The notes beneath the pieces were generated by a model. It ran no database searches, was not told the DNA's origin, and worked only from the letters and a program-made list of their open reading frames with translations. Positions 7,788-40,265 of a stretch of 64,000 nt of DNA are shown here, one piece after another; position 1 is the stretch's first letter; each line of letters opens with the position of its first letter. The translations under genes and the position numbers were made by a program. Origin of the DNA: a virus (Duplodnaviria > Caudoviricetes); IMG/VR virus record IMGVR_UViG_3300013121_000013, positions 1 to 64,000 of that record, one strand, 5' to 3'.

Positions 7788-7996
7788 ATAGTCAGCGATA
7801 GCTGAGGTGTCGGCTGGTTAGGACTTGTAGGGCGTGGCAGGATGCCCGCCCTACTAACTTGGAAAATCTGCTATCCTAGCTAGGCAGCAGATCGGCGGTT
7901 AGAGGAGTACACCCGTTAGCATCCTCTTATTAAAGCCATAATTTAATTTCTTGGCTGATTGGGCTCTAGGTGGGGAAACTAGAGATCGCTGACTAT
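7788..7996. ncRNA. Putative ~210 nt multibranched structured RNA
   Basis: 12-bp closing stem ATAGTCAGCGAT/ATCGCTGACTAT enclosing at least 4 internal hairpins; GC-rich intergenic region. Confidence 0.55.
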
Positions 7997-8730
7997 CTCA
8001 TTAATAGCTTTATAAGCTCTGGCACAAAATTAAGAATTAGAGCAAATATGGACACAAGAGAGCCTATTACAAAAACTAGTGAGAGATTTTGAGACCATGT
8101 CATTCGGCTAATTCTATCTATAGCCCATTCTGGAACTATGCCAAAGAGCTTTCTATTACCGACATTTGGATCTCTTGCTATTTCGTCTAGCTCTATACCA
8201 CTTTCGTCTAGAAGTGCCATAGTGATAGCTACAGGAAATCCACCCATTTTATCTCTAGATCTTACTTTAGCTAATTCAGCTTCGGTCATTTTAATAACCT
8301 CTGCTGGCCACGGTATTCTTATGACAACGAGTCTTCCCTTTTTAGCCTCTCCATTTTTAACTTTCCAAATTTTCGACATTCTATAGTGAGATACTTCGCC
8401 GGTTATCAGTTTTTTAAAGTTTGTCTTGTCTAGCAACCTTTCTTCAGAAGAAGAGAAGTTATCAAATCTCATGAATTGAAGCTCAAGTTCGCTGTATCCG
8501 GTAAAGTCTTGAAATTCTGAGTTGGCTGATATCATATAGCCGTTTAAACAAACAAGACTCATAGGAATCGGCAAAATATGCATAAGCTTATAAAGAGTTG
8601 ACTCTTTCCAACTTTCTGGAGAGACTCTTCCGTCTAGAAGTGCCTTAATTAGATTTAATTCTTTTTCTTTAAACTCGTTTAAATTCTTATCTTTCAAAAC
8701 TTCTGATACGGGCAGCTTAGACAATGTCAT
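7993..8730 (-). CDS. PAS-domain protein with C-terminal transmembrane helix
   Basis: PIPMSLVCLNG...ANSEFQDFTGYSELEL...KNG PAS S-box pattern; hydrophobic C-terminus. Confidence 0.75.
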   Translation of the reverse strand: MTLSKLPVSEVLKDKNLNEFKEKELNLIKALLDGRVSPESWKESTLYKLMHILPIPMSLVCLNGYMISANSEFQDFTGYSELELQFMRFDNFSSSEERLLDKTNFKKLITGEVSHYRMSKIWKVKNGEAKKGRLVVIRIPWPAEVIKMTEAELAKVRSRDKMGGFPVAITMALLDESGIELDEIARDPNVGNRKLFGIVPEWAIDRISRMTWSQNLSLVFVIGSLVSIFALILNFVPELIKLLMR

Positions 8731-8911
8731 TTTGTCTTTTCTCCATCTATGTCGGAAATATATACGTGGATTATATTTAAGTATATACGCTGCCAGTTGT
8801 TTACGTAAATAGATATGCTAAATTTTCGACAAAAACACGTTATAATATAGTGCAAAAGCTCATAAGTATGAGAGTTGCCGTTTTTATATCTATTTAAAAT
8901 TGATTTTTCAC

Positions 8912-8940
8912 TTGAATTGTTTAAGTTACTTATGTAACAT
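8912..8940 (+). promoter_or_regulatory. Sigma70-like promoter for the tRNA/Y-RNA operon
   Basis: TTGAAT-17 bp-TAACAT, 10 nt upstream of the first RNA element. Confidence 0.55.
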
Positions 8941-8949
8941 CTTTGAATC

Positions 8950-9018
8950 ATAACTGACTGCAGCATTGGACTACATCACTTGTAAGGCGAATGTCTAATG
9001 CGAACCCTTGTCAGTTAT
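8950..9018 (+). ncRNA. Y-RNA-like element Y1 (minimal)
   Basis: ATAACTGAC/GTCAGTTAT outer stem, GCATTGGAC/GTCTAATGC inner stem, TACATC. Confidence 0.75.
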
Positions 9019-9023
9019 AATGT

Positions 9024-9147
9024 GTGAGGGTAGCTCAATGGGCAGAGCACAAAGAGTTCTCTCTGGATAATTTTCGTTGATGTCGTCAACTGCCATCTTG
9101 AGTACATCATAATCTTTAGGTTGTAGGTTCGAATCCTACCCCTCACA
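9024..9147 (+). ncRNA. tRNA(CAU)-like RNA with a circularly permuted Y module inserted in the anticodon loop
   Basis: GTGAGGG/CCCTCAC acceptor stem, normal D and T arms; insert TTTTCGTTGA-TGTCG-TCAACTGC...GAGTACATC. Confidence 0.75.
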
Positions 9148-9152
9148 CTTTT

Positions 9153-9226
9153 TGCAGAGTGGACTGGAGAGGCGCCAGCGCGGCTTCATACGCCGTACGA
9201 CACGGGTTCGATTCCCGTCTCTGCGA
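9153..9226 (+). tRNA. tRNA-Met(CAU)
   Basis: Cloverleaf; GCGGC-TTCATAC-GCCGT anticodon arm; weak 1:72 pair; no encoded CCA. Confidence 0.8.
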
Positions 9227-9227
9227 C

Positions 9228-9376
9228 TTACCAACTGTTTGATAAGAGTACATCAATTTGAATGGTTCGATTCCATTTTCCCCCTATATCTACTATCGGG
9301 GGAAAAGCCACAAGGCGTGGCACTTACCCTTCTGGGGTAAGAATTTATGGATCTCTTGTCTACTCTTCGTTGGTAA
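9228..9376 (+). ncRNA. Y-RNA-like element Y2, YrlA-type with a permuted tRNA cloverleaf
   Basis: TTACCAAC/GTTGGTAA and GATAAGAG/CTCTTGTC stems; T arm, loop-closed acceptor stem, D arm, anticodon-like arm. Confidence 0.8.
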
Positions 9377-9379
9377 CAT

Positions 9380-9436
9380 GGTAGCTCTCTTAGATTTAAA
9401 TAATCTAAGGAGATGACTTTCGAAGGTCAAGCTACC
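9380..9436 (+). ncRNA. Small three-way-junction RNA
   Basis: GGTAGCT/AGCTACC stem closing two hairpins. Confidence 0.5.
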
Positions 9437-9440
9437 CCTT

Positions 9441-9576
9441 CCTGACTGCTAGAATGGAGTACATCCCTTCGGAGGACGAAGAATCGGTGCAAATCCGATC
9501 CCTGCAACTTCAAAATTTATTGCAGGGTAGTGTAATAGATAGCACGCGAAAAATCTCTATTCATCCCCTTGTCAGG
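9441..9576 (+). ncRNA. Y-RNA-like element Y3, YrlA-type with a permuted tRNA(UCG)
   Basis: CCTGAC/GTCAGG and GAATGGAG/CTCTATTC stems; anticodon loop CTTCGGA, T arm, CCCTGCA/TGCAGGG acceptor, D arm. Confidence 0.8.
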
Positions 9577-9582
9577 TTAATT

Positions 9583-9655
9583 GGGCAGTTAGTTCAGCGG
9601 CAAGAGCGCCTCGTTTACACCGAGGATGTCACAGGTTCGAGTCCTGTACTGCCCA
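9583..9655 (+). tRNA. tRNA-Val(UAC)
   Basis: Canonical cloverleaf; CCTCG-TTTACAC-CGAGG. Confidence 0.95.
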
Positions 9656-9657
9656 CT

Positions 9658-9781
9658 TCCGACTGCTGTTTTTAGTACATCGTTCTGCCAGGTGTGGTAA
9701 CTAGCCCACTCCAAGCGACGCCAGCAATGGTGATGGCCCTTAAAGTCGTGTAACTAAGTCTAAAAACAAATCTTTGTCGGA
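9658..9781 (+). ncRNA. Y-RNA-like element Y4 with a ~78 nt non-tRNA insert
   Basis: TCCGAC/GTCGGA and TGTTTTTAG/CTAAAAACA stems, TACATC. Confidence 0.75.
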
Positions 9782-9793
9782 CGTGCGTATTTT

Positions 9794-9877
9794 CGGGGTG
9801 TAGACCGTAACTTGGTAGCGGGCCTGCTTTGGGAGCAGGTGGTATATCCCCTGTAGGTTCAAATCCTATCACCCCGA
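9794..9877 (+). tRNA. tRNA-Pro(UGG) with enlarged variable region
   Basis: CGGGGTG/CACCCCG acceptor; CCTGC-TTTGGGA-GCAGG. Confidence 0.9.
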
Positions 9878-9881
9878 CTTC

Positions 9882-9980
9882 GACAAATAGGCGAGAGTGT
9901 GGCTCGGAGCAGTAATGCGACGGGTGGCTGGGTTTGTAGCATCATAGTGCAATCTCCACAGTATGCACCGTCTGTTTGTC
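9882..9980 (+). ncRNA. Unassigned structured RNA
   Basis: 12-bp closing stem GACAAATAGGCG/CGTCTGTTTGTC with G-U pairs; internal TGTGG/CCACA. Confidence 0.55.
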
Positions 9981-9987
9981 TTATTAT

Positions 9988-10060
9988 GGGACCGTAGCTC
10001 AATGGTCAGAGCAAGGAACTCATAATTCCCAGGTTGTAGGTTCGAATCCTACCGGTCCCA
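9988..10060 (+). tRNA. tRNA-Ile2 or Met (CAU)
   Basis: GGGACCG/CGGTCCC acceptor; CTCATAA loop; Ile2-like body. Confidence 0.9.
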
Positions 10061-10086
10061 CTGTAGGATAACTAACCTATATTTTT

Positions 10087-10173
10087 GGAAGGGCAAGCCA
10101 ATTGGCGGTGGCCGCGCTCTTGAAAAGCGTTAGGGGTTAACGACCCGTGTGGGTTCGACTCCCACCTCTTCCG
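10087..10173 (+). tRNA. tRNA-Ser(UGA)
   Basis: GGAAGGG/CTCTTCC acceptor, CTTGAAA loop, long variable arm, G discriminator. Confidence 0.95.
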
Positions 10174-10180
10174 CTAAACT

Positions 10181-10249
10181 TGGGCTGGGGCAGGGATCTA
10201 GAAATAGAGCTGCTTGCCATTATCATAGGGCTCGTAACCCACCAGTCCG
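10181..10249 (+). ncRNA. Reduced tRNA-like RNA
   Basis: GGGCTGG/CCAGTCC stem, one long arm, T-loop-like GGG-CTCGTAA-CCC. Confidence 0.4.
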
Positions 10250-10252
10250 CTT

Positions 10253-10322
10253 TGCTAACTGTTGGTCCGGATTACATCAATCATTTTTAACCGTTGACAT
10301 CCGGATCGTCACCTCGTTAGCA
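10253..10322 (+). ncRNA. Y-RNA-like element Y5 (minimal)
   Basis: TGCTAAC/GTTAGCA and GGTCCGGAT/ATCCGGATC stems, TACATC. Confidence 0.75.
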
Positions 10323-10333
10323 TAATATTCTTA

Positions 10334-10432
10334 TCGGCGGTGCCTGGAAGGCTTCCTTGTAGAAATCTGCGAATAGTCAGCTGTGCTAGTCTGATTAGAG
10401 GTAAACAGGTTCGATTCCTGTTACATGTCCGA
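10334..10432 (+). ncRNA. Atypical tRNA-like RNA (canonical T arm, aberrant body)
   Basis: AACAGG-TTCGATT-CCTGTT plus three small hairpins; poor acceptor stem. Confidence 0.45.
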
Positions 10433-10434
10433 AT

Positions 10435-10507
10435 GCCGTTCTGGTGTAGCCGGTCTGCACGCCTGCCTGAAGAGCAGGAGGTTCTGGTTCGAACCCAGAG
10501 GACGGTA
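10435..10507 (+). tRNA. tRNA-Phe(GAA)
   Basis: GCCGTTC/GGACGGT acceptor; CCTGC-CTGAAGA-GCAGG. Confidence 0.9.
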
Positions 10508-10890
10508 CTTGTCCACCGGCAGTCCGAAGACTGCTGAGGCCGCCATGTGGGGGTCAGGTAGGGCAGCCATAGAATGTAGGTCCCCTAGCAGGGAGGATGT
10601 CATGAAATCGATGTTTAGCTTTATTATAGCCACGGGTGCGTGTGGCACCCTTTAATAATACCTCAGCTTTTGTGCTTGGCGGCACGAGGATGACTGAGGG
10701 TAGATTTAAATTTGTTAAGTAAGCTTCGTACTTGTCAGAACATTCAGATTCAGTGAGAATACCAATGTAAGATGTAAGATAAGTTTTAGAATTTTAGAAC
10801 CAGGAGATTAGGAGTTGAGCTCCCTAATGTAGCGCCTGGGCAGTGCGCTCAAGTCCGACTGCTTTCTAGTCGGATCTTACTTTTATATAC

Positions 10891-10963
10891 GGGTCTGTGG
10901 CGTAATTGGGAACGCGCTGGATTTGCACTCCGGAGTTGAGGGTTCGATTCCCTCCAGTATCCA
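10891..10963 (+). tRNA. tRNA-Ala(UGC) with a 1-nt acceptor bulge
   Basis: CTGGA-TTTGCAC-TCCGG; G3:U70 is kept if one T of CAGTATCC is bulged. Confidence 0.8.
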
Positions 10964-10967
10964 TTAA

Positions 10968-11027
10968 GCCGACTATCGAACGGTTTACACCATAATGCCA
11001 AAATAAACTGTTCAAATCTTCGTCGGC
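10968..11027 (+). ncRNA. Y-RNA-like element Y6 (minimal)
   Basis: GCCGAC/GTCGGC and GAACGGTTTA/TAAACTGTTC stems, TACACC. Confidence 0.75.
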
Positions 11028-11038
11028 CTAAATCATTT

Positions 11039-11300
11039 TTCAACTGCGGTCAGCGGAGTACACCTGAAAATAGAATTGTTCGGGAGTAGCTTCCCATAAA
11101 GAGCGCTAGCACGTAGGAATGCTCTTTATAAGCAGGCGATCCCTCGTAGCAGCCGGAGGTTAAACGGCGCAAGTAGGAGTTACTTTGAAACCCCCCTGGT
11201 AAAGCTTGGGTTAAATGTGATGCTCGTGGCGACGAGCCTAAACTATAATAAGTGTGGGTGTTCCACGCTTGTTACGCCTCTCCGGACCATTTTCGTTGAA
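11039..11300 (+). ncRNA. Y-RNA-like element Y7 with a ~210 nt structured insert
   Basis: TTCAAC/GTTGAA and GGTC(AG)CGGAG/CTCCGGACC stems, TACACC. Confidence 0.75.
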
Positions 11301-11314
11301 TCTATATTGGTCTA

Positions 11315-11484
11315 GATCGACTGCGGCAGACGGCATTCATCATGCCTAGCTGTTTAAGGAAGGTAATAGGAGAAAGTTCGCGGCCTCCTGGGCACGTCCT
11401 TTAGCCAAAAGAAATCCGCGCATGCCGATAGCCTCTCGGCTGTATGAGGCACCTTAACCCTTGCTGCTGCAACTTTCGTCGATC
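11315..11484 (+). ncRNA. Y-RNA-like element Y8 with a ~120 nt pseudoknotted insert
   Basis: GATCGAC/GTCGATC and GCAG(A)CGGCA/TGCTGCTGC stems, TTCATC. Confidence 0.7.
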
Positions 11485-11487
11485 AAC

Positions 11488-11531
11488 GGAGCCCTGAGGA
11501 TTGTCCTCAGGGCTCCTTGTTTCTTTTTTTT
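11488..11531 (+). terminator. Intrinsic terminator closing the ncRNA operon
   Basis: Perfect 13-bp stem GGAGCCCTGAGGA/TCCTCAGGGCTCC plus a T-rich tract. Confidence 0.85.
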
Positions 11532-11555
11532 CGTTTCTTAATAGGAGAAACTGCA

Positions 11556-13181
11556 ATGTCGAATCCTGATCTCTTTAGCAGCAAATCAGCCACTTCTTCT
11601 TTCGGGCTGAAACATCCTAAGACTGATACTGTGAATAACGCTGGAGGCGTTGCTTATAAATTTACACCGATGCATGCCCTTGCTCAGATGGTTGCGACCG
11701 GAGTGTTTCGTAACACGTATTACACTTCTGGTGCAGAGCAATTGAAGGCATTCATGGAAATTACCGAAGATAAGAAAAGTATCAGTGATGAAAGGCTGGC
11801 TAAGTTAGCGATCTGGGGGCGGCACAACGCTTATATGAAGGACACCCCTGCAGCTTGCGTTATGCGTCTGTTGTCTAGAAACAACATGGACTTGTTCCAT
11901 AAGGTTTTCGATAAAGTAATCGACAACGGTCGAATGCTCCGTAATGCATTTCAGATGTTGAGGTCTGGTGTATTTGGTAGGCGTAGCATGGGATATTCGG
12001 TTCAACGTGCTTTTCAGCGCTGGTTCAATGAGAAGCCAGTACACGTTCTTGTTGCTGGAAGCGTAGGCAACAATCCTAGCCTTAAGGACGTTCTACGTGC
12101 AGCAAGGCCGACTCCTAAAGATCAAGAGAGAGACGCTCTCTTCGGATGGCTTGCTGGCAAGGCCACTGACGCACAGGCACAGAACTTCCCACAAATGTTG
12201 AAAGATATTTTGGAGTTCAGAGCAAACAAAGAACCTAGTGCTCAAATTGAGGTTCTTAACAGGATGGGCGGGTTGCGTTGGGAAATGCTATCTGACGCGA
12301 TTGCTGGTCCAGAGGTGTGGAAGGTAATTATCGGGCATATGGGCCATCAAGCACTTCGTATGAATCTCAATACCCTCGATCGGCATGATGTATTTAAGTC
12401 CAAAGAGACAGTTAATTATGTAGCCAGCAGGCTGTCTGATGTTGAAGAAATCAAGAAGGCAAGGCAGTGGCCTATTCAGTACTTCAGCGCATATATGAAT
12501 GCCGATAATGTCCCTCATAAGATTCGTGAAGCTCTGTGTTCGGCTGCCGAAGTAGCTTGTGGTAATATTCCAGAGCTAGATGGCCCTCTAGTAATTGGCG
12601 TGGATACTTCTGGTTCTATGGGTTCTCCCATTACAGGCGTCCATGCTAAAGGAGGCGCATCGTCCAAAGTGACTTGTAGAGATGCCGCAGCCCTGTTTGC
12701 TGCGGCCCTGATTCGAAAGAATCCGGACTCTCTAGTTGTTCCTTTTGACGATAGGATTCACAAGATCAAGATCGATCCTGGAGATACTATTCTTAGTATT
12801 AGCAAATCCTTGTCTAGACTTGGAGGTGGCGGCACTTGCTGTCATCTACCGCTGCAGCATGCAAATAGTCTTAACAGGCCGTTTGCTGGTTGCGTCATGA
12901 TTTCTGACAATGAAAGCTGGATCGGCACTGGTCGATACGGGTCAACAGGCGTCATGTCGGAGTGGAATATCTTTGTTGATAGGCAGAAAAAGCTTGGTGT
13001 ATATCCAGCGCCAAAGCTTCTAAATATTGACATCGCTCCATATGCATCAACTCAGGCTGTTGATAGGGTTGATATCTTGAATGTTGGAGGATTTTCTGAC
13101 TCTGTCTTTAGCGTTATTTCTGGATGGATGTTCAATAAAGCTGGAACGTTTGTCGATCAGATCGAAGCTGTCCAGCTCTAA
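11556..13181 (+). CDS. rsr: Ro60/Rsr TROVE-domain RNA-binding protein with C-terminal vWA domain
   Basis: N-terminal NNAGGVAY, ALRMNLNTL, MIDAS DTSGSM, GGGT, SDNESW, VGGFSDSVF; AGGAG RBS supports ATG 11556. Confidence 0.92.
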   Translation: MSNPDLFSSKSATSSFGLKHPKTDTVNNAGGVAYKFTPMHALAQMVATGVFRNTYYTSGAEQLKAFMEITEDKKSISDERLAKLAIWGRHNAYMKDTPAACVMRLLSRNNMDLFHKVFDKVIDNGRMLRNAFQMLRSGVFGRRSMGYSVQRAFQRWFNEKPVHVLVAGSVGNNPSLKDVLRAARPTPKDQERDALFGWLAGKATDAQAQNFPQMLKDILEFRANKEPSAQIEVLNRMGGLRWEMLSDAIAGPEVWKVIIGHMGHQALRMNLNTLDRHDVFKSKETVNYVASRLSDVEEIKKARQWPIQYFSAYMNADNVPHKIREALCSAAEVACGNIPELDGPLVIGVDTSGSMGSPITGVHAKGGASSKVTCRDAAALFAAALIRKNPDSLVVPFDDRIHKIKIDPGDTILSISKSLSRLGGGGTCCHLPLQHANSLNRPFAGCVMISDNESWIGTGRYGSTGVMSEWNIFVDRQKKLGVYPAPKLLNIDIAPYASTQAVDRVDILNVGGFSDSVFSVISGWMFNKAGTFVDQIEAVQL

Positions 13182-13296: not shown

Positions 13297-14691
13297 ATGT
13301 CGCTAGAGGTAAAATACATGCAGCAAGTAATAGATAAGTTAATTGCTGGTCTATATCTTATAAAAAGAGGAGCTTCTCCAGAGCTATCATATGATATGCA
13401 TGGAGAGCTTTATTTAAGTAAGTCTGGATGGATTCTATTATCAGTTCCTAACTCTCTTGTTAGAGGATCATTTGATGCTCTTGGAGTTGTCGGAGCTGAA
13501 TTACCTCCAGGTCCTGATGGAAAGCTAAATGCGCATATTTCTGTTATTAGGCCAGAAGAACTTGAGCAGATAGGCGGCGCTGATAAAGTAACAGAAAGAG
13601 GAAAACAGTTTAAGTATAGGATTAAAAGCTTAAAAACTGTAGTTCCATCTAGTTGGCCTGAGATATCTAAAGTCTGGATGTTAGAAGTTCAATCGCCAGA
13701 ATTAGAAAATTTAAGAAAAAGTTATGGACTTTCAGCCAGGCCAAAAGATAACAAATACGAATTTCATATCACCATAGCGGTCAGAAGAAAACACGTCTTA
13801 AAAGAAAATGAAATAGTAAAAAAGAGTGGAGTAATAAAAGTGGCAAACTCAGATAACGCACCTTATAGGGAGCGCGCCGAGGTATTTGCTATTTCTCCTT
13901 CTAATAAAGTATTCGGAGCAATATGGGATAACGATAAGACATTTGCAATTCCTGGTGGAGGAATAGACCCAGGAGAAGATATTACAGAAGGGGCGCTTAG
14001 AGAGTTTAACGAAGAAACTGGATTAAAGATAAGAAATCCAAGATTAGCGCCTGATATAGAGCCAGTCGTGAATCTATGGCCTGAAGAATATAGGAAATCG
14101 GCACCTGAGGATAGAAAGCATTTTCTAGGCAGTAGAACACATTATGTCTTAGCTGATATCGACGATAACTTACTTGTAGATCCTTCTACCGACTACTGGG
14201 GTGCCAAAGACAAGCGCTATTACGATCTTGAAGAGGCTTTAAAGATTCATACTGGATCAGAAATTCCTCCAATGTCTAAACCTCATTGGGAGGTAAGAAA
14301 AAGAATTTTGGAAAATCTGCTTAAAGGCGTACAAAGTAAAAAAGCTGATAATACAACAGATGATGAAGTCTATAGAAATTCTCTTGAGGAGGCAGTAGAA
14401 CATGAATTAGAACACACAGATGACGAAGATATAGCAGAAGAAATAGCTAAAGACCATCTTAAAGAAGATCCAGAATATTATACAAATTTAGATAAGATGC
14501 ATGAATACGTTAATAATCTGGACGATGATTCTGAAGATGCTTTAAAAGACTCTATTGTCATAAAGCAGACAACTATGATTATTTCTTCAAAGAAAGGTAT
14601 TAAGCCTCCTAAAGAATTGGAAAAGATTTTCTCTAAGTCAGCGCCAGGGATACCAGAAGAGCTAGAAGAGTTATTTAACAGAGGTAGATAA
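13297..14691 (+). CDS. 2H-phosphoesterase + Nudix hydrolase + DUF5661-like fusion protein
   Basis: HISV and HITI 2H motifs; Nudix box GGGIDPGEDITEGALREFNEETG; ELEHTDD...IAKDHLKEDPEYY. Confidence 0.8.
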   Translation: MSLEVKYMQQVIDKLIAGLYLIKRGASPELSYDMHGELYLSKSGWILLSVPNSLVRGSFDALGVVGAELPPGPDGKLNAHISVIRPEELEQIGGADKVTERGKQFKYRIKSLKTVVPSSWPEISKVWMLEVQSPELENLRKSYGLSARPKDNKYEFHITIAVRRKHVLKENEIVKKSGVIKVANSDNAPYRERAEVFAISPSNKVFGAIWDNDKTFAIPGGGIDPGEDITEGALREFNEETGLKIRNPRLAPDIEPVVNLWPEEYRKSAPEDRKHFLGSRTHYVLADIDDNLLVDPSTDYWGAKDKRYYDLEEALKIHTGSEIPPMSKPHWEVRKRILENLLKGVQSKKADNTTDDEVYRNSLEEAVEHELEHTDDEDIAEEIAKDHLKEDPEYYTNLDKMHEYVNNLDDDSEDALKDSIVIKQTTMIISSKKGIKPPKELEKIFSKSAPGIPEELEELFNRGR

Positions 14692-16201: not shown

Positions 16202-18043
16202 ATGCAAAGTTTTAAACAGTACTGCTATATGCTTGGAAAATCGGCTGCTTGGTCGTTTAACTCTAAAGGTTGTGTAGGAAAGATTAAGCAAGCTGCTCAA
16301 CTTTATCGTGGTTTGAAGACTGACTATGTAGAACCAAACATTGATAATAAGCGGTATAATGAATTGATTACCAGCGCACTAGATGGCGGTTTATCTAGAA
16401 AAGCACAACACGAATTGCAAATGCTTGGGCGCAGACGCGAACAATTTTACACTGACCAAGAGAATGAGGCGCGACAATATGCTGGTCCTGGCGGTACTTT
16501 GGTGAAATTAAATCTTCCTGATGCTGGCCTATCTGAGTTTAGGTGGACATACAACAATCTCGGTAGGCCAAATCAGTTTTTAACTGGTGCAATAGACTCA
16601 GCGCGATTACAGCGGTTGTTGCAGCGTAGACGATGGTTGCAAAGCATTGAAAAGATAATAATACAACATAACGAGAAACAAGCTGCTAAAGGTATACCAG
16701 ATAGAAAAGATTACGGAGATTTATCAAATATTAATATTGGTCAATTAGTTGATTGGATAGTTCAAAAACACGACGCAGAGAGAGCGGGAACTCATTATGA
16801 CGTTCGGTTTGGAACTCCAGAATCTGGATTGTACTCATGGGCAGCTAGAAAAGGCTTACCTAAACCTGGAGAGAAAAACTTAGCCGTTCAACAACCTCTT
16901 CACTCTTATGATTATAAAGATTTTGAAGGCCGAATTGAGGAAGGCTACGGCAAAGGAAACGTCAAGAAGCAAGATTCAGGAGAGATTCTATTAACTGATG
17001 TTTCTCCTAATAAGATTAATTTTACTACCGGTTCTAAGAGATTCCCAGAGAGATTCTCTTTAGTAAGAACAGGCAAAGGTAAGAACTGGCTTTTATTAAA
17101 CACAACACCAACAAAATCAGTAGGTGTAGATAAGGTACATTATAAGGTAGTAGACGCTGATAAAGTTCAGCCTTTGATAGACGATCTATCAAAAGGCTCG
17201 TCTGTTCAGGCTAAGATAGATGGAGCCTCTTCTTTAATTAATCTAGTTAAAGATAAAGTTGAGCTTCTTTCATATAGACAAAACAAAGCTACTGGATATC
17301 CAATCTTTCATACTGAAAGGGCTTTTGGTGGAATACCCAAAGGAGTTCCTAAAGATTTAAATGACACTACCTTGAGAGGAGAGCTTTATGGATTAAAGAA
17401 TAATAAAGTCATTCCTCCAAGCGAGTTAGGTGGGCTCCTTAACTCTGGAGTAGCTAAAAGCTTAAAAGATCAGAAAGATCGAGGCATACAACTTAGAAAT
17501 ATGGTGTATGATATAGCTAAGTATAAAGGAAAAGAAATAGATGTAAATAAAATACCATACGAGCAACGAATGAAATATATAAAAGAAATACTTGATAAGA
17601 TTCCGCACGGAGATAGATTTGAAGTTGCCCAGGAAGCTAAGACTCCAGACGAAGCAAGATCTTTACTAGATAGCATTAGATCCGGGCAGCACCCTCAAAC
17701 TTCTGAAGGAATAGTTATTCATCCTCCTACTGGAAATCCTATTAAGTCTAAGCTCCTTGAAGAACAGGATGTTCATATAAGAGAATTCTTCCCAGGAAAA
17801 GGAAGGTTGCTAGATAAGGGTGTAGGTGGGTTTAAATATAGCTTAACTCCTACAGGGCCTATATTAGGAGAAGTAGGGACCGGGCTGACAGATGATATGC
17901 GAAGTCAGATGCATCAGGACCAAGGGTCTTTTATAGGCCGCCGAGCCAGGGTCAGATCACAAGGAGCGCTGCCTAGCGGTGCATTAAGGGCGCCGGCTTT
18001 AATATCTTTACATGAAGATTATCCTCTTATGCAAGGACAATAA
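16202..18043 (+). CDS. ATP-dependent DNA ligase fused to a LigD-type 3'-phosphoesterase domain
   Basis: VQKHDA..HYDVRF..SWAARKG..H..DY.DFEG.I..GYGKG (PE domain); KIDG, GELY, YDI, EGIV, VGTGL (ligase/OB fold). Confidence 0.88.
   Translation: MQSFKQYCYMLGKSAAWSFNSKGCVGKIKQAAQLYRGLKTDYVEPNIDNKRYNELITSALDGGLSRKAQHELQMLGRRREQFYTDQENEARQYAGPGGTLVKLNLPDAGLSEFRWTYNNLGRPNQFLTGAIDSARLQRLLQRRRWLQSIEKIIIQHNEKQAAKGIPDRKDYGDLSNINIGQLVDWIVQKHDAERAGTHYDVRFGTPESGLYSWAARKGLPKPGEKNLAVQQPLHSYDYKDFEGRIEEGYGKGNVKKQDSGEILLTDVSPNKINFTTGSKRFPERFSLVRTGKGKNWLLLNTTPTKSVGVDKVHYKVVDADKVQPLIDDLSKGSSVQAKIDGASSLINLVKDKVELLSYRQNKATGYPIFHTERAFGGIPKGVPKDLNDTTLRGELYGLKNNKVIPPSELGGLLNSGVAKSLKDQKDRGIQLRNMVYDIAKYKGKEIDVNKIPYEQRMKYIKEILDKIPHGDRFEVAQEAKTPDEARSLLDSIRSGQHPQTSEGIVIHPPTGNPIKSKLLEEQDVHIREFFPGKGRLLDKGVGGFKYSLTPTGPILGEVGTGLTDDMRSQMHQDQGSFIGRRARVRSQGALPSGALRAPALISLHEDYPLMQGQ
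17174..17192. promoter_or_regulatory. Palindromic motif copy 2 (TTGATAGA-CGA-TCTATCAA), intragenic
   Basis: Same 8-bp arms as the other copies, 3-nt spacer. Confidence 0.45.
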
Positions 18044-20628: not shown

Positions 20629-21705
20629 ATGCGTTTGACACACCAAATCGCTATTCAATCTGGTGTTCCGACTTTGTTCTATGGCGAGCCGGGAGTTGGT
20701 AAGTCCAGCTCTCTTATGGCGTTCGGAGCTGCTCTTAATGAGCCGACAGAAGTCGTTATTTCTTCTGTTCGAGAACCGTCTGATTTTGCCGGTCTTCCTG
20801 TTCTGACAGAACAAGGCGTTATTCTTCACGCTCCGTCGTGGGCGCACCGGCTGTGCAAGGCTGGTCATGGAATTCTATTTTTGGACGAGATTTCTACTGC
20901 AGCGCCTGCCGTACAGTCAGCGCTATTGCGAGTGGTACTCGATGGTGTTGTAGGTGATCTAGAGCTGCCAAAGCGTGTCAAGGTGGTTGCTGCCTGTAAT
21001 CCAGTGGATCAGGCAGCGAATGGTTGGGATCTGGCTCCACCTCTTGCAAATCGATTCTGCCATATCAAATGGCGAGTTGATACCGAGAAGTGGATCGATG
21101 GAATGGTGTCTGGATTCCCGACACCTGAAGTAACTAAGCTGCCGGACGATTGGTACGAGCAGTGTATGCCTCAGTCCAGGGCTATCGTCGCTTCTTTTAT
21201 TAAGGCTCGACAGGCGCTCCTTCTGAATCTCCCTAAAGACGAGTCTCAGATGGGTGGTGCATGGGCATCGCCTCGATCCTGGACTATGGCGGCTCAAATG
21301 CTTGCTGCCTGTGATTCCATCAAGGCTCCTAAAGAATGCAAGATGGAACTTATCGCCGGCTGCGTTGGCGAGGCCCCGGCTCTGGAGTTCGTGAATTGGG
21401 CAGAAGAGCTGGATCTTCCTGATCCGGAGTTCGTCCTGGCCAATCCAGAGAAGTTCAAGCTACCAAAGCGTGGCGATCGTGTTTACGCTTGCTTGTCTAC
21501 TATCGTGGCCGCTGTGCTTAATAACAACACTCCTAAGCGATGGGTGGCGTGTTGGAAGGTGCTGGCGCTTACTCAGGATGAGGGTATGGCTGACGTTGGA
21601 GCGTCGGCAGCTATTACTCTTAGTAAGAATCGTCCGCCCAAGACCAGCCCACCTCCTGAGGCTAATAAGTTCATGAAGCTTCTGGTTCAAGCTGGAGTTT
21701 ACTAA
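20629..21705 (+). CDS. MoxR-like AAA+ ATPase
   Basis: Walker A GEPGVGKS, Walker B LFLDE, VVAACN, PPLANRF, SPRSW. Confidence 0.92.
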   Translation: MRLTHQIAIQSGVPTLFYGEPGVGKSSSLMAFGAALNEPTEVVISSVREPSDFAGLPVLTEQGVILHAPSWAHRLCKAGHGILFLDEISTAAPAVQSALLRVVLDGVVGDLELPKRVKVVAACNPVDQAANGWDLAPPLANRFCHIKWRVDTEKWIDGMVSGFPTPEVTKLPDDWYEQCMPQSRAIVASFIKARQALLLNLPKDESQMGGAWASPRSWTMAAQMLAACDSIKAPKECKMELIAGCVGEAPALEFVNWAEELDLPDPEFVLANPEKFKLPKRGDRVYACLSTIVAAVLNNNTPKRWVACWKVLALTQDEGMADVGASAAITLSKNRPPKTSPPPEANKFMKLLVQAGVY

Positions 21706-27213: not shown

Positions 27214-30200
27214 ATGTTACCAGATATCCTAAAGCCAAGAGAACCAGCCCCAGCCACGCCACAACAGGCTGGGGTTTTGTCCAATCCTCCATCTTCTCAA
27301 TGGGGGAAGCCCACATCTATTAATATGCCTCCAGCGCCTGAGGTTAATCAACGATCTTTTGGTGATATAGACGCCACTAGAAAATTGATCTTCGATAACG
27401 TACTGGCAGCGGCACAAAGAATAGAGCCTGTCGGTAACTCCAGGCACATCATGGAGGTTAGCGATGTTCATTATCATGGGCCAGATAGATACTCTATCAA
27501 AGAAAGAAAGAAAGCTATTCTTGCGGGTAACTCGTTGCAAAGAAGATTAAGAGGAACCATAGTTTTAAAGAATGCTGCTACTGACGAGCCTATAGATAAA
27601 GTTACTACGACTTTAGCTCATGTACCGTATTTAACGGAAGGCGGTACGTTTGTTTTAAATGGAAACGAGTATACGTTAGCCCACCAAATGAGGCTTAGAC
27701 CTGGAATCTTTGCGCGTATTAAAGAGAACGGCGAGATCGAATCTCACGTTAACATTCTTCCAGGTAAGGGCGTATCGCATCGTTACTATCTGGACCCTGA
27801 GTCTGGACAATTTAAAATTAACATCGGACAAGCTAGAATGCCGCTAATGCCTTTGTTGAGGGCGATGGGTGTAACAGATACTCAGCTGAGAGAGCATTGG
27901 GGTAACGACATCTACAATAGCAATGCTCCTTTGGATGATCCATCTGTTATCGATAAGCTTTATAAGAGATTGTTTAAAAGTTCCAAAGAGCAAACTCCAG
28001 CTGGGAGGCGTAAAGCTGTTGCTGAAGCATTTTCTAAAATGGAATTAGACTCTGATGTAACCAGAGCTACTCTTGGTAAAGGATTTAAAAACCTAAGCCC
28101 AGCCGCTATTCTATCAGCAACCAGAAAATTGATTTCGCTTAATAAAGGAGAGACAGATCCTGACGATAGAGATCACTTGGCGTATCAGACCTTCCTTGGC
28201 CCAGAGGATCTCTTTGCAGAAAGAATTAGAAGAGATAAAGGCGTATTAAGAAATATACTTTGGAAAAGCAGCTTTAAAGGCGACTTGAAATCCGTAACTC
28301 CCGGAACTCTTACTAAGCACTTGCATGCAGCTATAATGGGTAGCGGCCTAGGTCTTCCTTTGGAAGAAATTAATCCTTCTGACATCTTCGATCAGCAGAT
28401 GCGCGTAACTCGACTTGGCGAAGGCGGTATACCCAATATTGACGCCGTTCCAGATGAAGCTAGAAGCGTGCAGCCTTCTCACCTTGGGTTTATTGATCTT
28501 ATTAGAAGCCCGGAAAGCTTTAAAGTAGGCATTGATTCAAGAATGGCATACGCTGCTAAAAAGGGTAGCGATGGTAGGATCTATACACCTCTCTGGGATA
28601 TTAAGAGCAATAAAGTAGTTTATAAATCTCCTCAGGATATTTCCGAGTCTGTAATAGCATTTCCAAATCAGCTAAATAGAGGAATGTCTCACGTAGCGGC
28701 GTTAAAAGCTGGAAAGCTAAGCTACGTACCAAGAGACGAAGTTGAAATGGAAATACCAGACTTTGAAAGCTCCTTTTCGCCTTTAGCTAATCTTGTTCCA
28801 ATGAAGTCAGCTGTTAAAGGACAGAGAGTGGCTATGGGTAGTAGAATGTATACCCAGGCTCTTCCTGTCAGAAATGCAGAGGCTCCGTTGGTACAGACAG
28901 GTATTCCTGGAAAGCAAGAAAGTTTTGAACGACTATTCGGACGACAAATGGGCGCTGCGTTTGCCGATTCAGATGGAGTTGTAGAATCTGTAACGCCAGA
29001 TGAAATTGTCATTAGAAATGCTGATGGTAGTAAGTCTGTAAAAGAGCTGTATAACAATCTGCCATATAATCGTAAGACATTTTTGCACAATTCTCCTGTT
29101 GTGCAGCCAGGCCAAAGAGTTAAAGCTAATCAGGTTCTTGCTGCTAGCAACTATACAAGTAAAGACGGAGAAGTAGCTTTGGGTCTAAACCCCAGAGTAG
29201 CATTCTTGCCGTATAAAGGTAAGAACTATGAAGACGCTATAGTTATATCGGAAGACTTTGCTAAAAGACTAACTTCTGAACATATGTATCAGAATGATAT
29301 AGAGTGGGATCCGAGCCATAAAAAGGGCAAGAACACATTTACGTCTATCTTTCCAAGCAAGTATTCAAGAGAAGTGCTTGATAATATGGACCAAGACGGA
29401 ATTGTCAAGCCTGGAACTACCGTAAACTATGGCGATCCGCTTATCTTGGTGGCTGCACAAAAGCAGCTTGGACATGGTAGTGTTATGAAGGCCAGATCTA
29501 ATGCGTTTAGTGATAAATCGGTAATCTGGGAACATCATTTCCCAGGTGTTGTAACAGACGTATCGCCAACTAAAAAAGGCGCCACTGTCGCCGTTAAAGC
29601 TTATGTACCTACGCAGGTAGGCGATAAGATGTGCTACTCAGAGGATACTCAGGTTTTAACATATAATGGTTGGAAATTTATTTACGAGATAACGACAAAT
29701 GATTTAATTGCAACGCTAGTAGATGGACGTGAACTACAATACTTTAAACCTGTAGCTGTTCATAAATATCCACATAAAGATAGAATGTATTCTTTAGAAA
29801 CTACGCAAGTTAGCTTACTAGTCACGGATAATCATAGACTATATGCAAAACCAAGAGATAGAGAAGAATACTCTCTTATCGAGGCTAAGAATCTTTTTGG
29901 ATCTAGATTTAGTTTAAAACGTAATGTTGAGATTTTTGACGGGAAGAATGTAGATACAGTAAAGTTAGAAGATATAATTATAAGATGCGGAAGAGGAGGA
30001 GCTGCCACAAAAACTGTTGTAGGTCCAGAAATACCTATAGACACTTACTTAATGCTACTTGGAATGTACTTAAGCGAGGGTAATCTTGTAGACCAACCAT
30101 CGAGTGGAAGCTTTGGCTTTGATATAACACAAGTCAAACCGGACTTCAAATTGAAAATGATAACTGCTTTATCTAAAGCAGGAATCAAATTTTGTAGCCA

Positions 30201-33200
30201 TAGTAGAAATAATAAAATACGCATATATAGTAAACATTGGCTGCATCATCTTAAAAGTTTTGGGTCGCGTTGTTACTATAAACGAATTCCTTCTTTTATA
30301 TTTGATTTAGATGTAGACAAGCAGAAGTTATTATTAGACTGGTTGATGTGGGGCGACGGCCATATTTCTAAGACCACTGGATCAATGTCCTACACAACCA
30401 CATCTAGACGCCTTGCTGATGATATACAACGTCTTGTATTGAATATCGGTATGTCTGCTAACATAAAGCATAAGACTGGTGGCAAAACCGTATACATACG
30501 AAATAGAAAGTGTATAACTTCAGATATATATAGAATTTCTATATACAGATATAAGAATTTTCCAACTATAAATCATGGTCATTGTGATAACCAAAATGGA
30601 CAACGTGAGCAATGGGTAGACTATGATGGTTATGTGTATTGTCCGACCATGCCGCATAGTAATGTTATATATGTACGAAGAAATGGCAAACCTGTCTGGT
30701 GTGGAAATAGCAACAGATTTGGCGGTAAAGGTGTAATAGCTGAAGTAGTGCCAATGGATGAAATGCCAACTGACAAGGACGGAAAACCCTTTGAAGTTTT
30801 GCTAAATCCGCTTGGAGTAGTAAGCCGATGCTACGATGAGCAAACAGAGTTTCTAACAAAGCGCGGATGGGTATTCGGAAAAGATGTTCGAGATGAGGAC
30901 ATCTTTGTTTGCTATCATCCATGGACTAAAGGTTTATTTGAATTAGAACAGCTAGAACGATTTTATGCTGCGGACTACAAAGGAAAGATGCTTAAGTTTG
31001 AAAACAAAATGACAAACTTCTGTGTTACTCCTAATCATAGAATGTGGGCCGCTTGTGGATATCCTGGTGCGCCTTGGCAGGAAGTAACAGCGGAAAGAAT
31101 TGCTGGAAGAAAGGGTTGGAAGGTTCCAGTTGCTGGTAGGCCGATTCCTGGAGTTGAGCAAGCCTTCGTTCTTCCGCATTTTGATTATCACAAAAAGGAC
31201 ACAGCATCAAATAAAGAAGAAATTGTCATTAACGCTGGTGATTGGGCTGAGCTTCTCGGATGGTATATCGCAGAGGGAAATTCTGATGAAAAGGTACATA
31301 TAAGCCAGAGCAGTACAGCCAATGCGGAAAACTGTAGAAAGATAGTCAAGCTTTTAAATAGACTTCCTTTCTCTTGGCATTACAACCCTAAGAATTGTCA
31401 GTTTCATATTACTTCTAAGAGACTAGTTGAGGTTCTAAAGTCCTTTGGATTATGTGACAAGAAATATATACCAGACTGGTTATTTAGACAGCCTCCGCAT
31501 ATTAGGCAGAGATTTATTGATTCGTATCTGGCTGGTGACGGAAGTAAAGATAAATCCTATAGAGACAGCCAGTACTCTGGTGCGTCTACTATGTCTGAAC
31601 GTTTAGCCTCAGACCTTCAGAGATTGTTTGTATATCAAGGTATTTCTGCCAATATTAGTAAACACAAATCTGGAATTTGGAGAGTTGGTATACACCAGAA
31701 GAAGCACAGAATTCTTGAATCGCAGAACTGGAGCGAGATAGACTACGACGGAAAAGTATATTGCCCGACTGTACCTACAGGCTATATAGTTACTAGGCGA
31801 GCAGGTAAGATACTTATAGCAGGAAACACTAATCCAGCCCAGGTATTAGAGATGGCCTTGTCCAAAATAGCTAAAAAATACGGACGACCAGAGGTTGTAC
31901 ATGACTTCAGCGAAATAGAAGATTTAACTGAATGGGTTAAAAAGAGAATGGACGAAGAAGGTTTATCTTCTACTGAAGACCTTATAGATCCTAAGACTGG
32001 AAAGAAGATACCAAATATTTTGACCGGCCATCAGTTTATGATGAAGCTTCACCATACTTCCGAGTGCTTTAGTGCTGACACTGAAGTCTTAACTTCTGAA
32101 GGTTGGAAGAAGTGGCCAACTGTAACGAGCAAAGATAAACTAGCTACAGTAGAATTAGGAAGTAATAAGTTATTCTTTGAAGAGCCTCTGGAGTTAGTTA
32201 AGTATCATTTCAATGGTGATCTATTACAAGTTTCCAACCAATGTATAGATTATGCCGTTACGCCGAACCATCGATTGCTGTGTAGTTTTGAGAAATCTTC
32301 TGATCTAGAATTTAACACAGCTAAGAATGTTTATTCTAGAGACTTCTATATACCTCAATCTGGATTTATAAACTCTGAGAATATTGACGAAGGCGAAGTT
32401 AATATAAACGGGTTAAGCTTTAAATGGGATGACCTTTCAGAGCTTATTGCCTGGTGGGCAGCTAGAGGCAGTGCTACATCTTTAAAAGGCAAAAACATAG
32501 TAACCATATATCAAAATGAAAACCTTAAACCCGAAGGCTTTGCCTCAATTGATCAGCTACTGTCGAGACTAAAGCTTAACTATAAAGTTATAAATATATA
32601 TGGCAGAAAACTTGGCTTTACTATAAAGGGTAAAGAGCTTTCTAAATATTTTGTAAAGCTTGGGTCTAAAATATGTAATAAAAAGCTGCCAAGAGAGTTT
32701 GTTACACAAACTTCTTTAGAGACTCGTAGAAAGTTTTTAGGCATAATAGCCTTTAATAGCGTTGTGGAAAAAGAAGATGGAAGGAAGTTTTATTCTTTCT
32801 CTACGAAGTCCAGACAGTTGGCAGACGATATTCAAGAAGTTGCTATCAGATCCGGCTTCTCAGCTGTCGTAAAAAATGTAGTTATGGATAAGATGTTGAC
32901 CGGATTTAAAGTAGAGATCTTTACTAACAATAAGCGTGTGAAAGTAGACCAAAACAGCCATTCTTATCTACAGTATTCTGGAATGGTATACTGCGCCAAT
33001 ATGAGAAATGGCCTGCTGTACGTTAGAAGAAACGGGAAGCCAATGCTTTCTGGAAATTCTAAGTCTCAAGGTAGAGGTCTTGGCGGCTATACAGCAGAAG
33101 GAATTCCCGCAAAGGGCGGGGACGATGCTAGTAAAAGAATGGCTATGATGGATACTTACGCTTTGCTGTCTCATGGAGGTATAGATATCCTTAGAGATTC

Positions 33201-40191: not shown

Positions 40192-40265
40192 ACAATTATT
40201 GCAGAGATATTTAAATACTTGTTATTCTAGGTTAGTAAGCTTTAACAACGGCAAGGAGACTGAAC

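What the first reader, a model, noticed from the sequence alone, without database searches (positions are those of the whole stretch)
8912..13181. Phage Ro60 gene preceded by an array of nine Y-RNA-like modules, each with a different insert
Seen: nine elements share one scaffold (8950, 9024 permuted, 9228, 9441, 9658, 10253, 10968, 11039, 11315). The scaffold is an outer stem ending RAC, then TG(Y) (TA in Y6), an 8-10 bp inner stem, TACAYC (TTCATC in Y8), a variable insert, the inner stem complement, a pyrimidine-rich bulge and GTY. Both stems differ in sequence in every copy yet stay paired, which is within-genome covariation. Inserts range from about 10 to about 210 nt: three tRNA-like, three unrelated folds, three minimal. 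The elements are interleaved with 7 tRNAs between one promoter and one terminator, immediately upstream of a Ro60/TROVE gene. Known: bacterial Y RNAs (Yrn, YrlA/YrlB) have a Ro-binding stem plus an effector domain and usually occur as one or a few genes near rsr. Inference: a modular phage toolkit in which one Ro60 ring is directed by many RNA adaptors to different partners (nucleases, ribosome, synthetases, host defence proteins). I do not know of a described array of this size and insert diversity.
Basis: partly seen in the sequence, partly recalled or inferred. Interest (0 to 1): 0.95.

Follow-up and report, generated by a model that had tools for sequence, protein, structure and literature searches.

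The report
Phage Ro60 gene with nine-module Y-RNA array
A large phage, probably of planctomycete bacteria, carries a Ro60 RNA-binding protein gene preceded by seven tRNA genes and eight to nine small RNAs that share one Ro60-type docking stem but carry different payloads; it is an enlarged, diverged copy of a multi-RNA layout that is standard, and seemingly undescribed, in planctomycete bacteria.

Summary
Observation confirmed. They are the top hits in 64 kb and all lie on the Ro60 strand. The ninth, a tRNA-shaped permuted form, is plausible but rests on motif and geometry only.

The scaffold is not phage-specific. The same stem lies upstream of Ro60, on the same strand, in 76 of 80 Planctomycetota genome loci and 60 of 80 metagenome loci (488 hits, none antisense). 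Each locus has 1-8 modules, usually at the end of a 20-32 gene tRNA array. The roughly 130-nt bacterial modules match Rfam YrlA below its cut-off (E 1e-9 or lower), so this is a YrlA-type Ro60-binding stem.

The phage array has the most modules seen. Three payloads have no detectable relatives. 2H/Nudix and 3'-phosphoesterase-ligase genes lie 0.1 and 3 kb downstream of Ro60.

Ro60 binding and "different partners" remain inferred. "One promoter, one terminator" is not established.

No held paper describes such arrays. Earlier notes of this scan report similar arrays on other DNA, including planctomycetes.

Verdict: new variant of a known kind, of solid interest.

The parts
8731..8949 (+). Intergenic region after a strand switch; presumed promoter region of the array (not verified)
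   Evidence: The upstream ORF 7993-8730 is on the minus strand. No consensus sigma-70 match passed the scan here.
8950..9018 (+). Y1, minimal module (15-nt loop)
   Evidence: Bacterial-only model R2 42 bits, E 1.4e-10. MFE recovers the scaffold, z -3.7.
9024..9147 (+). Y2p, tRNA(CAU)-like RNA with a 57-nt insert in the anticodon loop that reads as a circularly permuted Y stem (probable)
   Evidence: Rfam tRNA 50.3 bits. D and T arms are nearly identical to the tRNA at 9988. The motif and a 5-6 bp closed outer arm are present. The stem is not recovered by MFE.
9153..9227 (+). tRNA-Met (CAU)
   Evidence: ARAGORN; Rfam tRNA 37 bits.
9229..9376 (+). Y3, module with a permuted cloverleaf payload (T arm, closed acceptor-like hairpin, D-like hairpin, extra hairpin)
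   Evidence: R2 38 bits, E 2e-9. MFE z -6.3.
9441..9576 (+). Y4, YrlA-like module (hairpin, T arm, closed acceptor-like hairpin, D arm)
   Evidence: R2 38.8 bits, E 1.3e-9. MFE z -3.7.
9583..9656 (+). tRNA-Val (UAC)
9658..9781 (+). Y5, module with a 78-nt non-tRNA payload
   Evidence: R2 31.5 bits, E 2e-7. MFE recovers the scaffold. No similar payload in 240 loci.
9794..9878 (+). tRNA-Pro (UGG)
9988..10061 (+). tRNA-Met (CAU)
10087..10174 (+). tRNA-Ser (UGA)
   Evidence: Rfam scores it under the tRNA-Sec model of the tRNA clan.
10253..10322 (+). Y6, minimal module
   Evidence: R2 41.3 bits, E 2e-10. MFE z -3.9.
10435..10508 (+). tRNA-Phe (GAA)
10854..10874 (+). Hairpin that looks like an outer stem without an inner stem, followed by a T-rich tail; possible internal terminator or degenerate module
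   Evidence: R2 14.9 bits through a local end. Terminator-like site.
10891..10962 (+). tRNA-Ala (UGC)
10968..11027 (+). Y7, minimal module (TA and TACACC variants)
   Evidence: R2 25.8 bits, E 1.3e-5. MFE z -4.3.
11039..11300 (+). Y8, module with a payload of about 210 nt of unknown fold; inner stem of 4+5 bp with a 2-nt bulge
   Evidence: R2 14.0 bits, E 0.057 window-wide and 0.002 within the array. MFE closes on the scaffold. No Rfam match and no similar sequence in 240 loci.
11315..11484 (+). Y9, divergent module with a payload of about 120 nt of unknown fold
   Evidence: R2 17.6 bits, E 0.0045. MFE recovers the outer and inner stems.
11488..11516 (+). Intrinsic-terminator-like hairpin (13 bp, 9 G-C, T-rich tail)
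11556..13181 (+). Ro60/Rsr orthologue, 541 aa, with a DTSGS (DxSxS-type) metal-site motif
   Evidence: Pfam TROVE 4e-9 and vWA_Ro60 5e-14. PDB Ro60 chains 9KOP, 2NVO, 9NEN and 1YVP matched. 50-56% identical to Planctomycetota Ro60. Translation.
13297..14691 (+). 2H phosphoesterase / Nudix / DUF5661 fusion protein
   Evidence: Pfam; PHROGs Nudix families.
16202..18043 (+). LigD-type 3'-phosphoesterase fused to an ATP-dependent ligase domain
   Evidence: Pfam LigD_N 2.4e-15 and DNA_ligase_A_M 8e-10.

Best explanation
Window 8950-11485 is a densely packed tRNA/Y-RNA gene array of a large tailed phage. Eight RNAs (nine with the permuted one) are built on the same YrlA-type stem. That stem has an outer helix ending RAC/GUY, an asymmetric internal loop (UG(C) on the 5' side, a pyrimidine-rich run ending YUUY on the 3' side), an inner helix with a conserved G-U wobble, and UACAUC. 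In planctomycete bacteria this stem is the constant part of 1-8 RNAs encoded just upstream of Ro60. The phage has a diverged copy of that host cassette (tRNAs, Y RNAs, Ro60). Inferred mechanism, step 1: the array is transcribed as one or a few precursors. RNase P and tRNA 3'-end processing cut out the tRNAs and so define the ends of the abutting Y RNAs, since spacers are 0-14 nt. Step 2: the phage Ro60 ring binds the constant stem. Step 3: the variable payloads (tRNA mimics, short loops, three unknown folds) give the particle different partners or substrates, or act as gates. Step 4: with the neighbouring 2H/Nudix and 3'-phosphoesterase-ligase genes, the locus probably serves RNA surveillance or repair during infection, for example coping with damage to tRNAs. 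Shown here: the scaffold family, its covariation, its linkage to Ro60, and its homology to YrlA through the bacterial members. Inferred: binding, processing and function.
For: Covariation is strong within the phage and across 37 sequences: 95% paired, 12 of 18 pairs with double changes, slid controls 17-49%. Linkage to Ro60: 241 model hits, all on the Ro60 strand, in 80 genome loci. The 5'-half profile gives 283 hits on the + strand and 0 on the - strand in 76 of 80 loci, mostly within 2 kb upstream. This replicates on metagenome contigs with 205 hits on + and 0 on -. In 4 of 5 whole genomes every hit lies at a Ro60 locus. Bacterial modules of about 130 nt match Rfam YrlA over the full model at 25-54 bits, E to 1e-9 (8e-12 when the stretch is searched alone), and the alignment maps the outer stem, loop, inner stem, CUAC and 3' bulge onto the scaffold. 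Y RNAs co-transcribed with a tRNA, and Y RNAs next to phage Ro60 genes, are documented (PMC4201824; PMC12135203). The Ro60 gene is intact with TROVE, vWA and a metal-site motif. End-healing and sealing enzymes lie 0.1 and 3 kb downstream.
Against: There is no direct evidence of transcription, processing or Ro60 binding. No phage module matches Rfam YrlA or Y_RNA even at E 10. The published motif GNCGAA(N)G is not literally present. The phage inner-stem sequences differ from the near-invariant bacterial ones, so binding to the phage Ro60 is assumed. A strong terminator separates the array from Ro60. One Gemmataceae genome has a minimal module behind three tRNAs 1.66 Mb from its only Ro60 gene. 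Y8 and Y9 score weakly, and Y2p is unsupported by folding.
Confidence: 0.8

Rival explanations
1. The scaffolds are processing, stability or termination elements of tRNA operons and work independently of Ro60. Their nearness to Ro60 would only reflect Ro60 sitting at the end of tRNA arrays.
For: In bacterial loci the first, minimal module starts 7-8 nt after the last tRNA of a 20-32 gene array. In one Gemmataceae genome a minimal module follows three tRNAs 1.66 Mb from Ro60. In the phage the modules abut tRNAs with 0-14 nt spacers.
Against: The modules cluster between the tRNA array and Ro60, often within 100-500 nt of the Ro60 start and far from any tRNA. They were not seen inside the long tRNA arrays. 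The tRNA-like members are homologous to YrlA, a demonstrated Ro60 ligand class (PMC4201824). The exceptional genome still encodes Ro60.
Confidence: 0.1
2. The phage RNAs are decoys aimed at the host's own Ro60 or at host tRNA-binding enzymes and nucleases, rather than adaptors for the phage Ro60.
For: The likely hosts encode their own Ro60 with the same stem type. Three payloads mimic tRNA.
Against: The phage keeps an intact Ro60 directly downstream. The phage inner stems have diverged from the bacterial consensus, and the bacterial 5'-half profile scores them at no more than 11 bits. This fits a private protein-RNA pair better than mimicry of host RNAs.
Confidence: 0.08
3. The repeats are chance similarities or a selfish repeat family without RNA function.
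For: None beyond the weak scores of Y8, Y9 and Y2p.
Against: Strand-specific, position-specific conservation across 136 loci from many genera, with compensatory changes.
Confidence: 0.02

Closest known systems
Bacterial YrlA/YrlB Y RNAs with Rsr (Salmonella rsr-yrlBA-rtcBA; Mycobacterium smegmatis; Rfam RF02553; PMC4201824)
   Same: Encoded on the same strand within a few kb of Ro60. A terminal stem with an internal loop forms the protein-binding part. The payload is a tRNA mimic in T arm, closed acceptor, D arm order (Y3, Y4) or a short loop (Y1, Y6, Y7, like YrlB). A repair-type enzyme neighbourhood is also shared. Bacterial relatives of the phage modules match RF02553 over its full length.
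   Different: There are eight to nine modules instead of the one to two per genome reported (355 RNAs in 276 genomes). The loop reads RAC-UG(C) rather than CGA-AUGC / GNCGAA(N)G. No phage module reaches any Rfam score. Three payloads are unrelated to tRNA, and one module is permuted into a tRNA-shaped RNA.
Deinococcus radiodurans rsr locus (Yrn1, Yrn2, tRNA-Asp, small RNAs a, b, d; PMC4201824)
   Same: [quoted passage not shown]
   Different: That locus has two clear Y RNAs and three doubtful ones, with one tRNA. There is no shared invariant scaffold across all of them. It is not a phage locus.
Thermus phage phiLo Ro60 with Yrl1/Yrl2, and mycobacteriophage YrlA RNAs (PMC12135203; PMC4201824)
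   Same: A phage-encoded Ro60 with Y-RNA-like genes directly upstream. The phiLo protein is the best PDB match of this Ro60.
   Different: Those phages have one or two RNAs with a CGAA motif. Protein identity is only about 24%.
Planctomycetota cassette of tRNA array, Y-RNA array and Ro60
   Same: Same scaffold (model R2), same strand and position relative to Ro60, same mix of minimal and tRNA-like payloads, and co-location with tRNA genes. The Ro60 proteins are 50-56% identical.
   Different: The bacterial loci have 1-8 modules with a nearly invariant inner-stem sequence and 20-32 tRNAs. The phage has 8-9 modules with diverged inner stems, only 7 tRNAs, payloads without bacterial counterparts, and modules interleaved with the tRNAs rather than following them.

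Membership tests
Bacterial Y RNA (YrlA/YrlB type) | Encoded within about 4 kb of a Ro60/TROVE gene on the same strand (criterion of PMC4201824) | tested here: met
   All nine modules lie 72-2606 nt upstream of Ro60 on the + strand.
Bacterial Y RNA (YrlA/YrlB type) | Stem formed by the 5' and 3' ends, interrupted by an internal loop or bulge that holds the Ro60-binding nucleotides | tested here: met
   MFE folds. Covariation in both helices. The permuted Y2p is the exception.
Bacterial Y RNA (YrlA/YrlB type) | Conserved 5' motif GNCGAA(N0-1)G | tested here: not met
   The positional equivalent reads RAC-UG(C/U). The Rfam alignment of a bacterial relative places GACUGCC opposite cgaAUGCu. This is a variant, not the literal motif.
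Bacterial Y RNA (YrlA/YrlB type) | Score at or above the Rfam RF02553 gathering threshold (69 bits) | tested here: not met
   No hit in the window or the whole phage record, even at E 10. Bacterial relatives score 25-54 bits, E 0.24 to 1e-9.
Bacterial Y RNA (YrlA/YrlB type) | YrlA only: tRNA-like domain with T arm, closed acceptor-like stem and D arm in that order | tested here: met
   Y3 and Y4 by MFE and inspection against the RF02553 consensus. Not applicable to the minimal modules or to Y5, Y8 and Y9.
Bacterial Y RNA (YrlA/YrlB type) | Bound by Ro60 and stabilised by it in cells | not testable with these tools
   Needs pull-down or gel-shift experiments.
   Six modules at E 1e-5 to 1e-10. 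Y9 at E 0.0045 and Y8 at E 0.057 over 128 kb searched. Y2p cannot be scored by a non-permuted model.
Ro60/Rsr protein | TROVE (HEAT-repeat ring) domain followed by a vWA domain with a DxSxS metal site | tested here: met
   Pfam PF05731 and PF25045. DTSGS in the translation. Matches to solved Ro60 structures.
tRNA (for Y2p) | Cloverleaf scoring above the Rfam tRNA threshold with a 7-nt anticodon loop | tested here: inconclusive
   50.3 bits against a threshold of 29, but with 57 nt in place of the loop. ARAGORN does not call it.

The most novel reading that the evidence does not exclude
The phage uses one Ro60 ring with a set of private adaptor RNAs. These would include a tRNA-shaped, RNase P-processable Y RNA and three payload domains of unknown fold. 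They would sense or intercept host attacks on tRNAs and feed damaged RNAs to the adjacent end-healing and ligase enzymes, making a phage counter-defence RNA-repair particle. More broadly, planctomycete Ro60 would work with up to eight conserved adaptor types rather than one or two.
Probability: 0.2. Interest if true: 0.85.

Novelty: new variant of a known kind. Interest (0 to 1): 0.62.

Why it matters
Ro60/Y-RNA particles are conserved from bacteria to humans, yet what the variable half of a Y RNA does is known for only a few cases, such as tethering PNPase. A system with eight or nine RNAs sharing one docking stem and carrying different payloads is a natural experiment in Y-RNA modularity. 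A bacterial phylum where 1-8 conserved module types sit beside Ro60 and a large tRNA array extends that experiment. Both give defined RNAs for pull-downs to identify partners. The permuted tRNA-form RNA links Y RNAs to tRNA processing in a new way. The locus also points to a phage use of Ro60 together with RNA end-repair enzymes.

Tried and rejected
- Rfam at gathering and at E 10 on the window and on sub-regions gave no Y_RNA or YrlA hit. The only other hit, HCV_SLVII at 23.6 bits, was dismissed as chance.
- Three further regex hits at 40258, 61385 and 62627 lack the stems and were rejected.
It was replaced by the bacterial-only model R2.
- No closer phage relatives were found. Megablast against phages found nothing but a tRNA fragment. 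Single-protein scans of viral and metagenome contigs found nothing. Profile scans returned only loci at 56% identity or less.
- A search for permuted modules in bacterial loci gave only tandem-neighbour artefacts.
- BLAST of the payloads of Y5, Y8 and Y9 and of the unassigned gaps against 240 loci found nothing.
- The phylum-wide co-occurrence test was uninformative. Only 42 candidates per genome were scored, and most sampled Ro60 genes belong to a different branch at about 40% identity.
- Genes downstream of bacterial Ro60 are not conserved.
- The reviews PMC10870794 and PMC6047535 and the supplement of PMC4201824 are not held, so I could not check whether planctomycete Y RNAs were listed there.

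Full report
**What is in the sequence**

The stretch 8950-11485 is non-coding on the + strand and lies just upstream of a 541-aa gene at 11556-13181. That gene has Pfam TROVE and vWA_Ro60 domains and a DTSGS metal-site motif. It matches solved Ro60 structures from Thermus phage phiLo, Deinococcus, human and Xenopus. ARAGORN and Rfam confirm seven tRNA genes.

Nine of them lie in this 2.4-kb stretch, against about four expected on both strands of shuffled sequence. Each of the nine has a complementary outer arm preceded by a pyrimidine-rich run; the other three do not. Thermodynamic folding of each element on its own recovers the outer helix, asymmetric loop and inner helix in eight of nine.

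**Is it a phage?**

The window belongs to a 155.6-kb IMG/VR record that CheckV rates 76% complete. It encodes a tail-sheath-like protein, a multisubunit RNA-polymerase-beta-like protein and an HNH endonuclease. Nearly all genes are on one strand.

Its Ro60 is 50-56% identical to Ro60 of Planctomycetota such as Gimesia, Rubinisphaera, Pirellulaceae and Isosphaeraceae. It is only 38% identical to the best isolated-phage protein, from Myxococcus phage Mx1. A planctomycete host is therefore likely.

**The scaffold is a bacterial family linked to Ro60**

I fetched 80 genome loci around the closest Ro60 genes. The same regex plus stem test hit upstream of Ro60 on the Ro60 strand in most of them.

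An alignment of 37 short members, three from the phage and 34 bacterial, shows 95% paired cells. Twelve of 18 pairs carry changes on both sides, against 17-49% pairing when partners are slid. The A-U and C-G pairs closing the outer helix are invariant, and the inner helix has a conserved G-U wobble.

- The covariance model R1 found 241 matches in the 80 loci, every one on the Ro60 strand.
- A profile of the 5' half found 283 hits on that strand and none on the other, in 76 of 80 loci. Most lie within 2 kb upstream of the start codon, with 1-8 per locus and a mode of 3.
- On 80 independent metagenome contigs the result repeats: 205 hits, none antisense, 1-6 per locus.
- In four of five whole genomes, all hits lie at Ro60 loci.
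- The exception is a Gemmataceae genome. One minimal module follows three tRNA genes 1.66 Mb from the only Ro60 gene.

**Link to known Y RNAs**

Rfam's YrlA model (RF02553, gathering score 69 bits) matches the roughly 130-nt bacterial modules over its full length at 25-54 bits, with E down to 1e-9 (8e-12 when the stretch is searched alone). The alignment places the family's outer helix, loop, inner helix, CUAC and 3' bulge onto the scaffold. The planctomycete loop reads GAC-UGCC where the Rfam consensus has CGA-AUGC.

So the scaffold is a lineage variant of the YrlA Ro60-binding stem described by Chen et al. 2014 (PMC4201824). That paper reports 355 candidate RNAs in 276 genomes, about one or two per genome, and Deinococcus Y RNAs co-transcribed with a tRNA.

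**An unbiased test of the phage copies**

Model R2 was built from 150 bacterial matches only and run without filters over the window. It returns Y1, Y6, Y4, Y3, Y5 and Y7 at 42-26 bits (E 1e-10 to 1e-5), Y9 at 17.6 bits (E 0.0045) and Y8 at 14.0 bits (E 0.057). No further module lies elsewhere in the phage record.

Among the phage copies, 96.8% of cells pair and 13 of 15 pairs have compensatory changes, with slid controls at 24-47%. This confirms the within-genome covariation. That alignment was fitted to the model, so it leans toward the structure.

**The ninth element**

Element 9024-9147 scores 50 bits as a tRNA. Its D arm and T arm are almost identical to the tRNA(CAU) at 9988. Fifty-seven nucleotides replace the anticodon loop.

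Read in order, they contain:
- a pyrimidine-rich run;
- a 5-6 bp hairpin matching the outer helix;
- UG, a 10-nt strand and UACAUC.

This is the scaffold circularly permuted, with tRNA ends open and the Y stem closed.

Against this reading, the inner helix is only 3+3 bp and the MFE fold prefers another pairing (-37.9 versus -36.0 kcal/mol when the outer hairpin is forced). The bacterial 5' profile scores it at background level, and no bacterial analogue was found. I rate the permuted reading at about 0.65.

**Payloads**

- Y1, Y6 and Y7 have loops of 14-20 nt.
- Y3 and Y4 carry a T arm, a closed acceptor-like hairpin and a D-like arm in the YrlA order, plus one extra hairpin each.
- Y5 (78 nt), Y8 (about 210 nt) and Y9 (about 120 nt) have no Rfam match and no similar sequence in any of 240 fetched loci. 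Their folds cannot yet be tested by covariation.

Bacterial modules also fall into conserved payload types held at characteristic distances from Ro60:
- a YrlA-like type in 57 loci;
- T-arm-only types;
- small-hairpin types about 100 nt from the start codon;
- minimal types that begin 7-8 nt after the last tRNA.

The idea of several adaptors for one Ro60 therefore applies to the bacteria too.

**Context and likely function**

Bacterial loci have 20-32 co-oriented tRNA genes upstream of the modules. Genes downstream of Ro60 vary.

In the phage, modules and tRNAs are interleaved with 0-14 nt spacers. RNase P and tRNA 3' processing would therefore define most Y RNA ends. This is an inference, supported by the Deinococcus and Mycobacterium precedents in PMC4201824.

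Downstream of Ro60 lie a 2H-phosphoesterase/Nudix/DUF5661 fusion and a LigD-type 3'-phosphoesterase fused to an ATP-dependent ligase. This arrangement recalls Salmonella rsr-yrlBA-rtcBA and points to RNA end repair.

The claim of one promoter and one terminator is not secure. A strong terminator-like hairpin follows Y9 (11488-11516), but a promoter-like site (10732-10760) and a terminator-like hairpin (10853-10875) lie inside the array.

**Other phages**

Two large phage contigs with a 37%-identical Ro60 have a single minimal Y RNA next to the gene. It has the canonical GAAUGCC loop and UACAUC. No phage locus retrieved approaches nine modules.

**Novelty**

Full-text searches found no paper on planctomycete Y RNAs or on arrays of more than a few Y RNAs. 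Two reviews and the key supplement are not held.

Earlier notes of this scan report similar multi-RNA arrays beside Ro60-type genes on other DNA. One describes a six-RNA array in a planctomycete at the end of a long tRNA array. I reached the same layout independently here.

**Verdict**

This is a real, well-supported Y-RNA-type array. It is a new variant of a known kind, not categorically new. The phage-specific features are:
- the highest module count seen;
- diverged stems;
- three payloads without relatives;
- a probable tRNA-form permutation.

Noticed in passing
L003-L082 and L164-L243 (e.g. L077:85-3949, L010:401-4086, L083:3061-7552): Planctomycetota Ro60 genes sit at the end of co-oriented arrays of 20-32 tRNA genes, followed by 1-8 Y-type modules. 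One such cassette (L083) is filed as a viral contig in IMG/VR but looks like the bacterial layout.
   Followed up: partly
L163:6012-6382 (G004:C1:2080011-2080381): In a Gemmataceae genome a 69-bit minimal module follows tRNA-His, tRNA-Arg and tRNA-Cys by 5 nt. It lies 1.66 Mb from the genome's only Ro60 gene, so linkage to Ro60 is not obligatory.
   Followed up: partly
window 9879-9987: A 109-nt gap between tRNA-Pro and tRNA-Met folds into a long closing stem with internal hairpins (-38.7 kcal/mol, z -3.2). It has no Y motif and no Rfam match.
   Followed up: partly
window 10323-10434: An unassigned 112-nt stretch ends in a good T-arm-like hairpin (GGTTCGATTCC loop region) but is not called as a tRNA. 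It may be a degenerate tRNA or another tRNA mimic.
   Followed up: partly
window 10509-10890: A 382-nt stretch inside the array has little predicted structure, an AT-rich part with a promoter-like site (10732-10760) and a terminator-like hairpin (10853-10875) that resembles an outer stem without an inner stem.
   Followed up: partly
window 9377-9440: The 64-nt spacer between Y3 and Y4 appears, by eye, to have a closing stem and an inner hairpin. It could be another small RNA.
   Followed up: no
window 16202-18043: A 613-aa protein joins a LigD-type 3'-phosphoesterase domain to an ATP-dependent ligase domain, 3 kb downstream of Ro60. An AAA_5 ATPase follows at 20629-21705.
   Followed up: partly
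window 27214-34743: A single 2509-aa open reading frame on the + strand; not examined.
   Followed up: no
L087:7832-7900 and L086:4336-4404: Large phage contigs with a 37%-identical Ro60 carry one minimal Y RNA with the canonical GAAUGCC loop plus UACAUC about 100 nt upstream of the gene, after interspersed tRNAs.
   Followed up: partly
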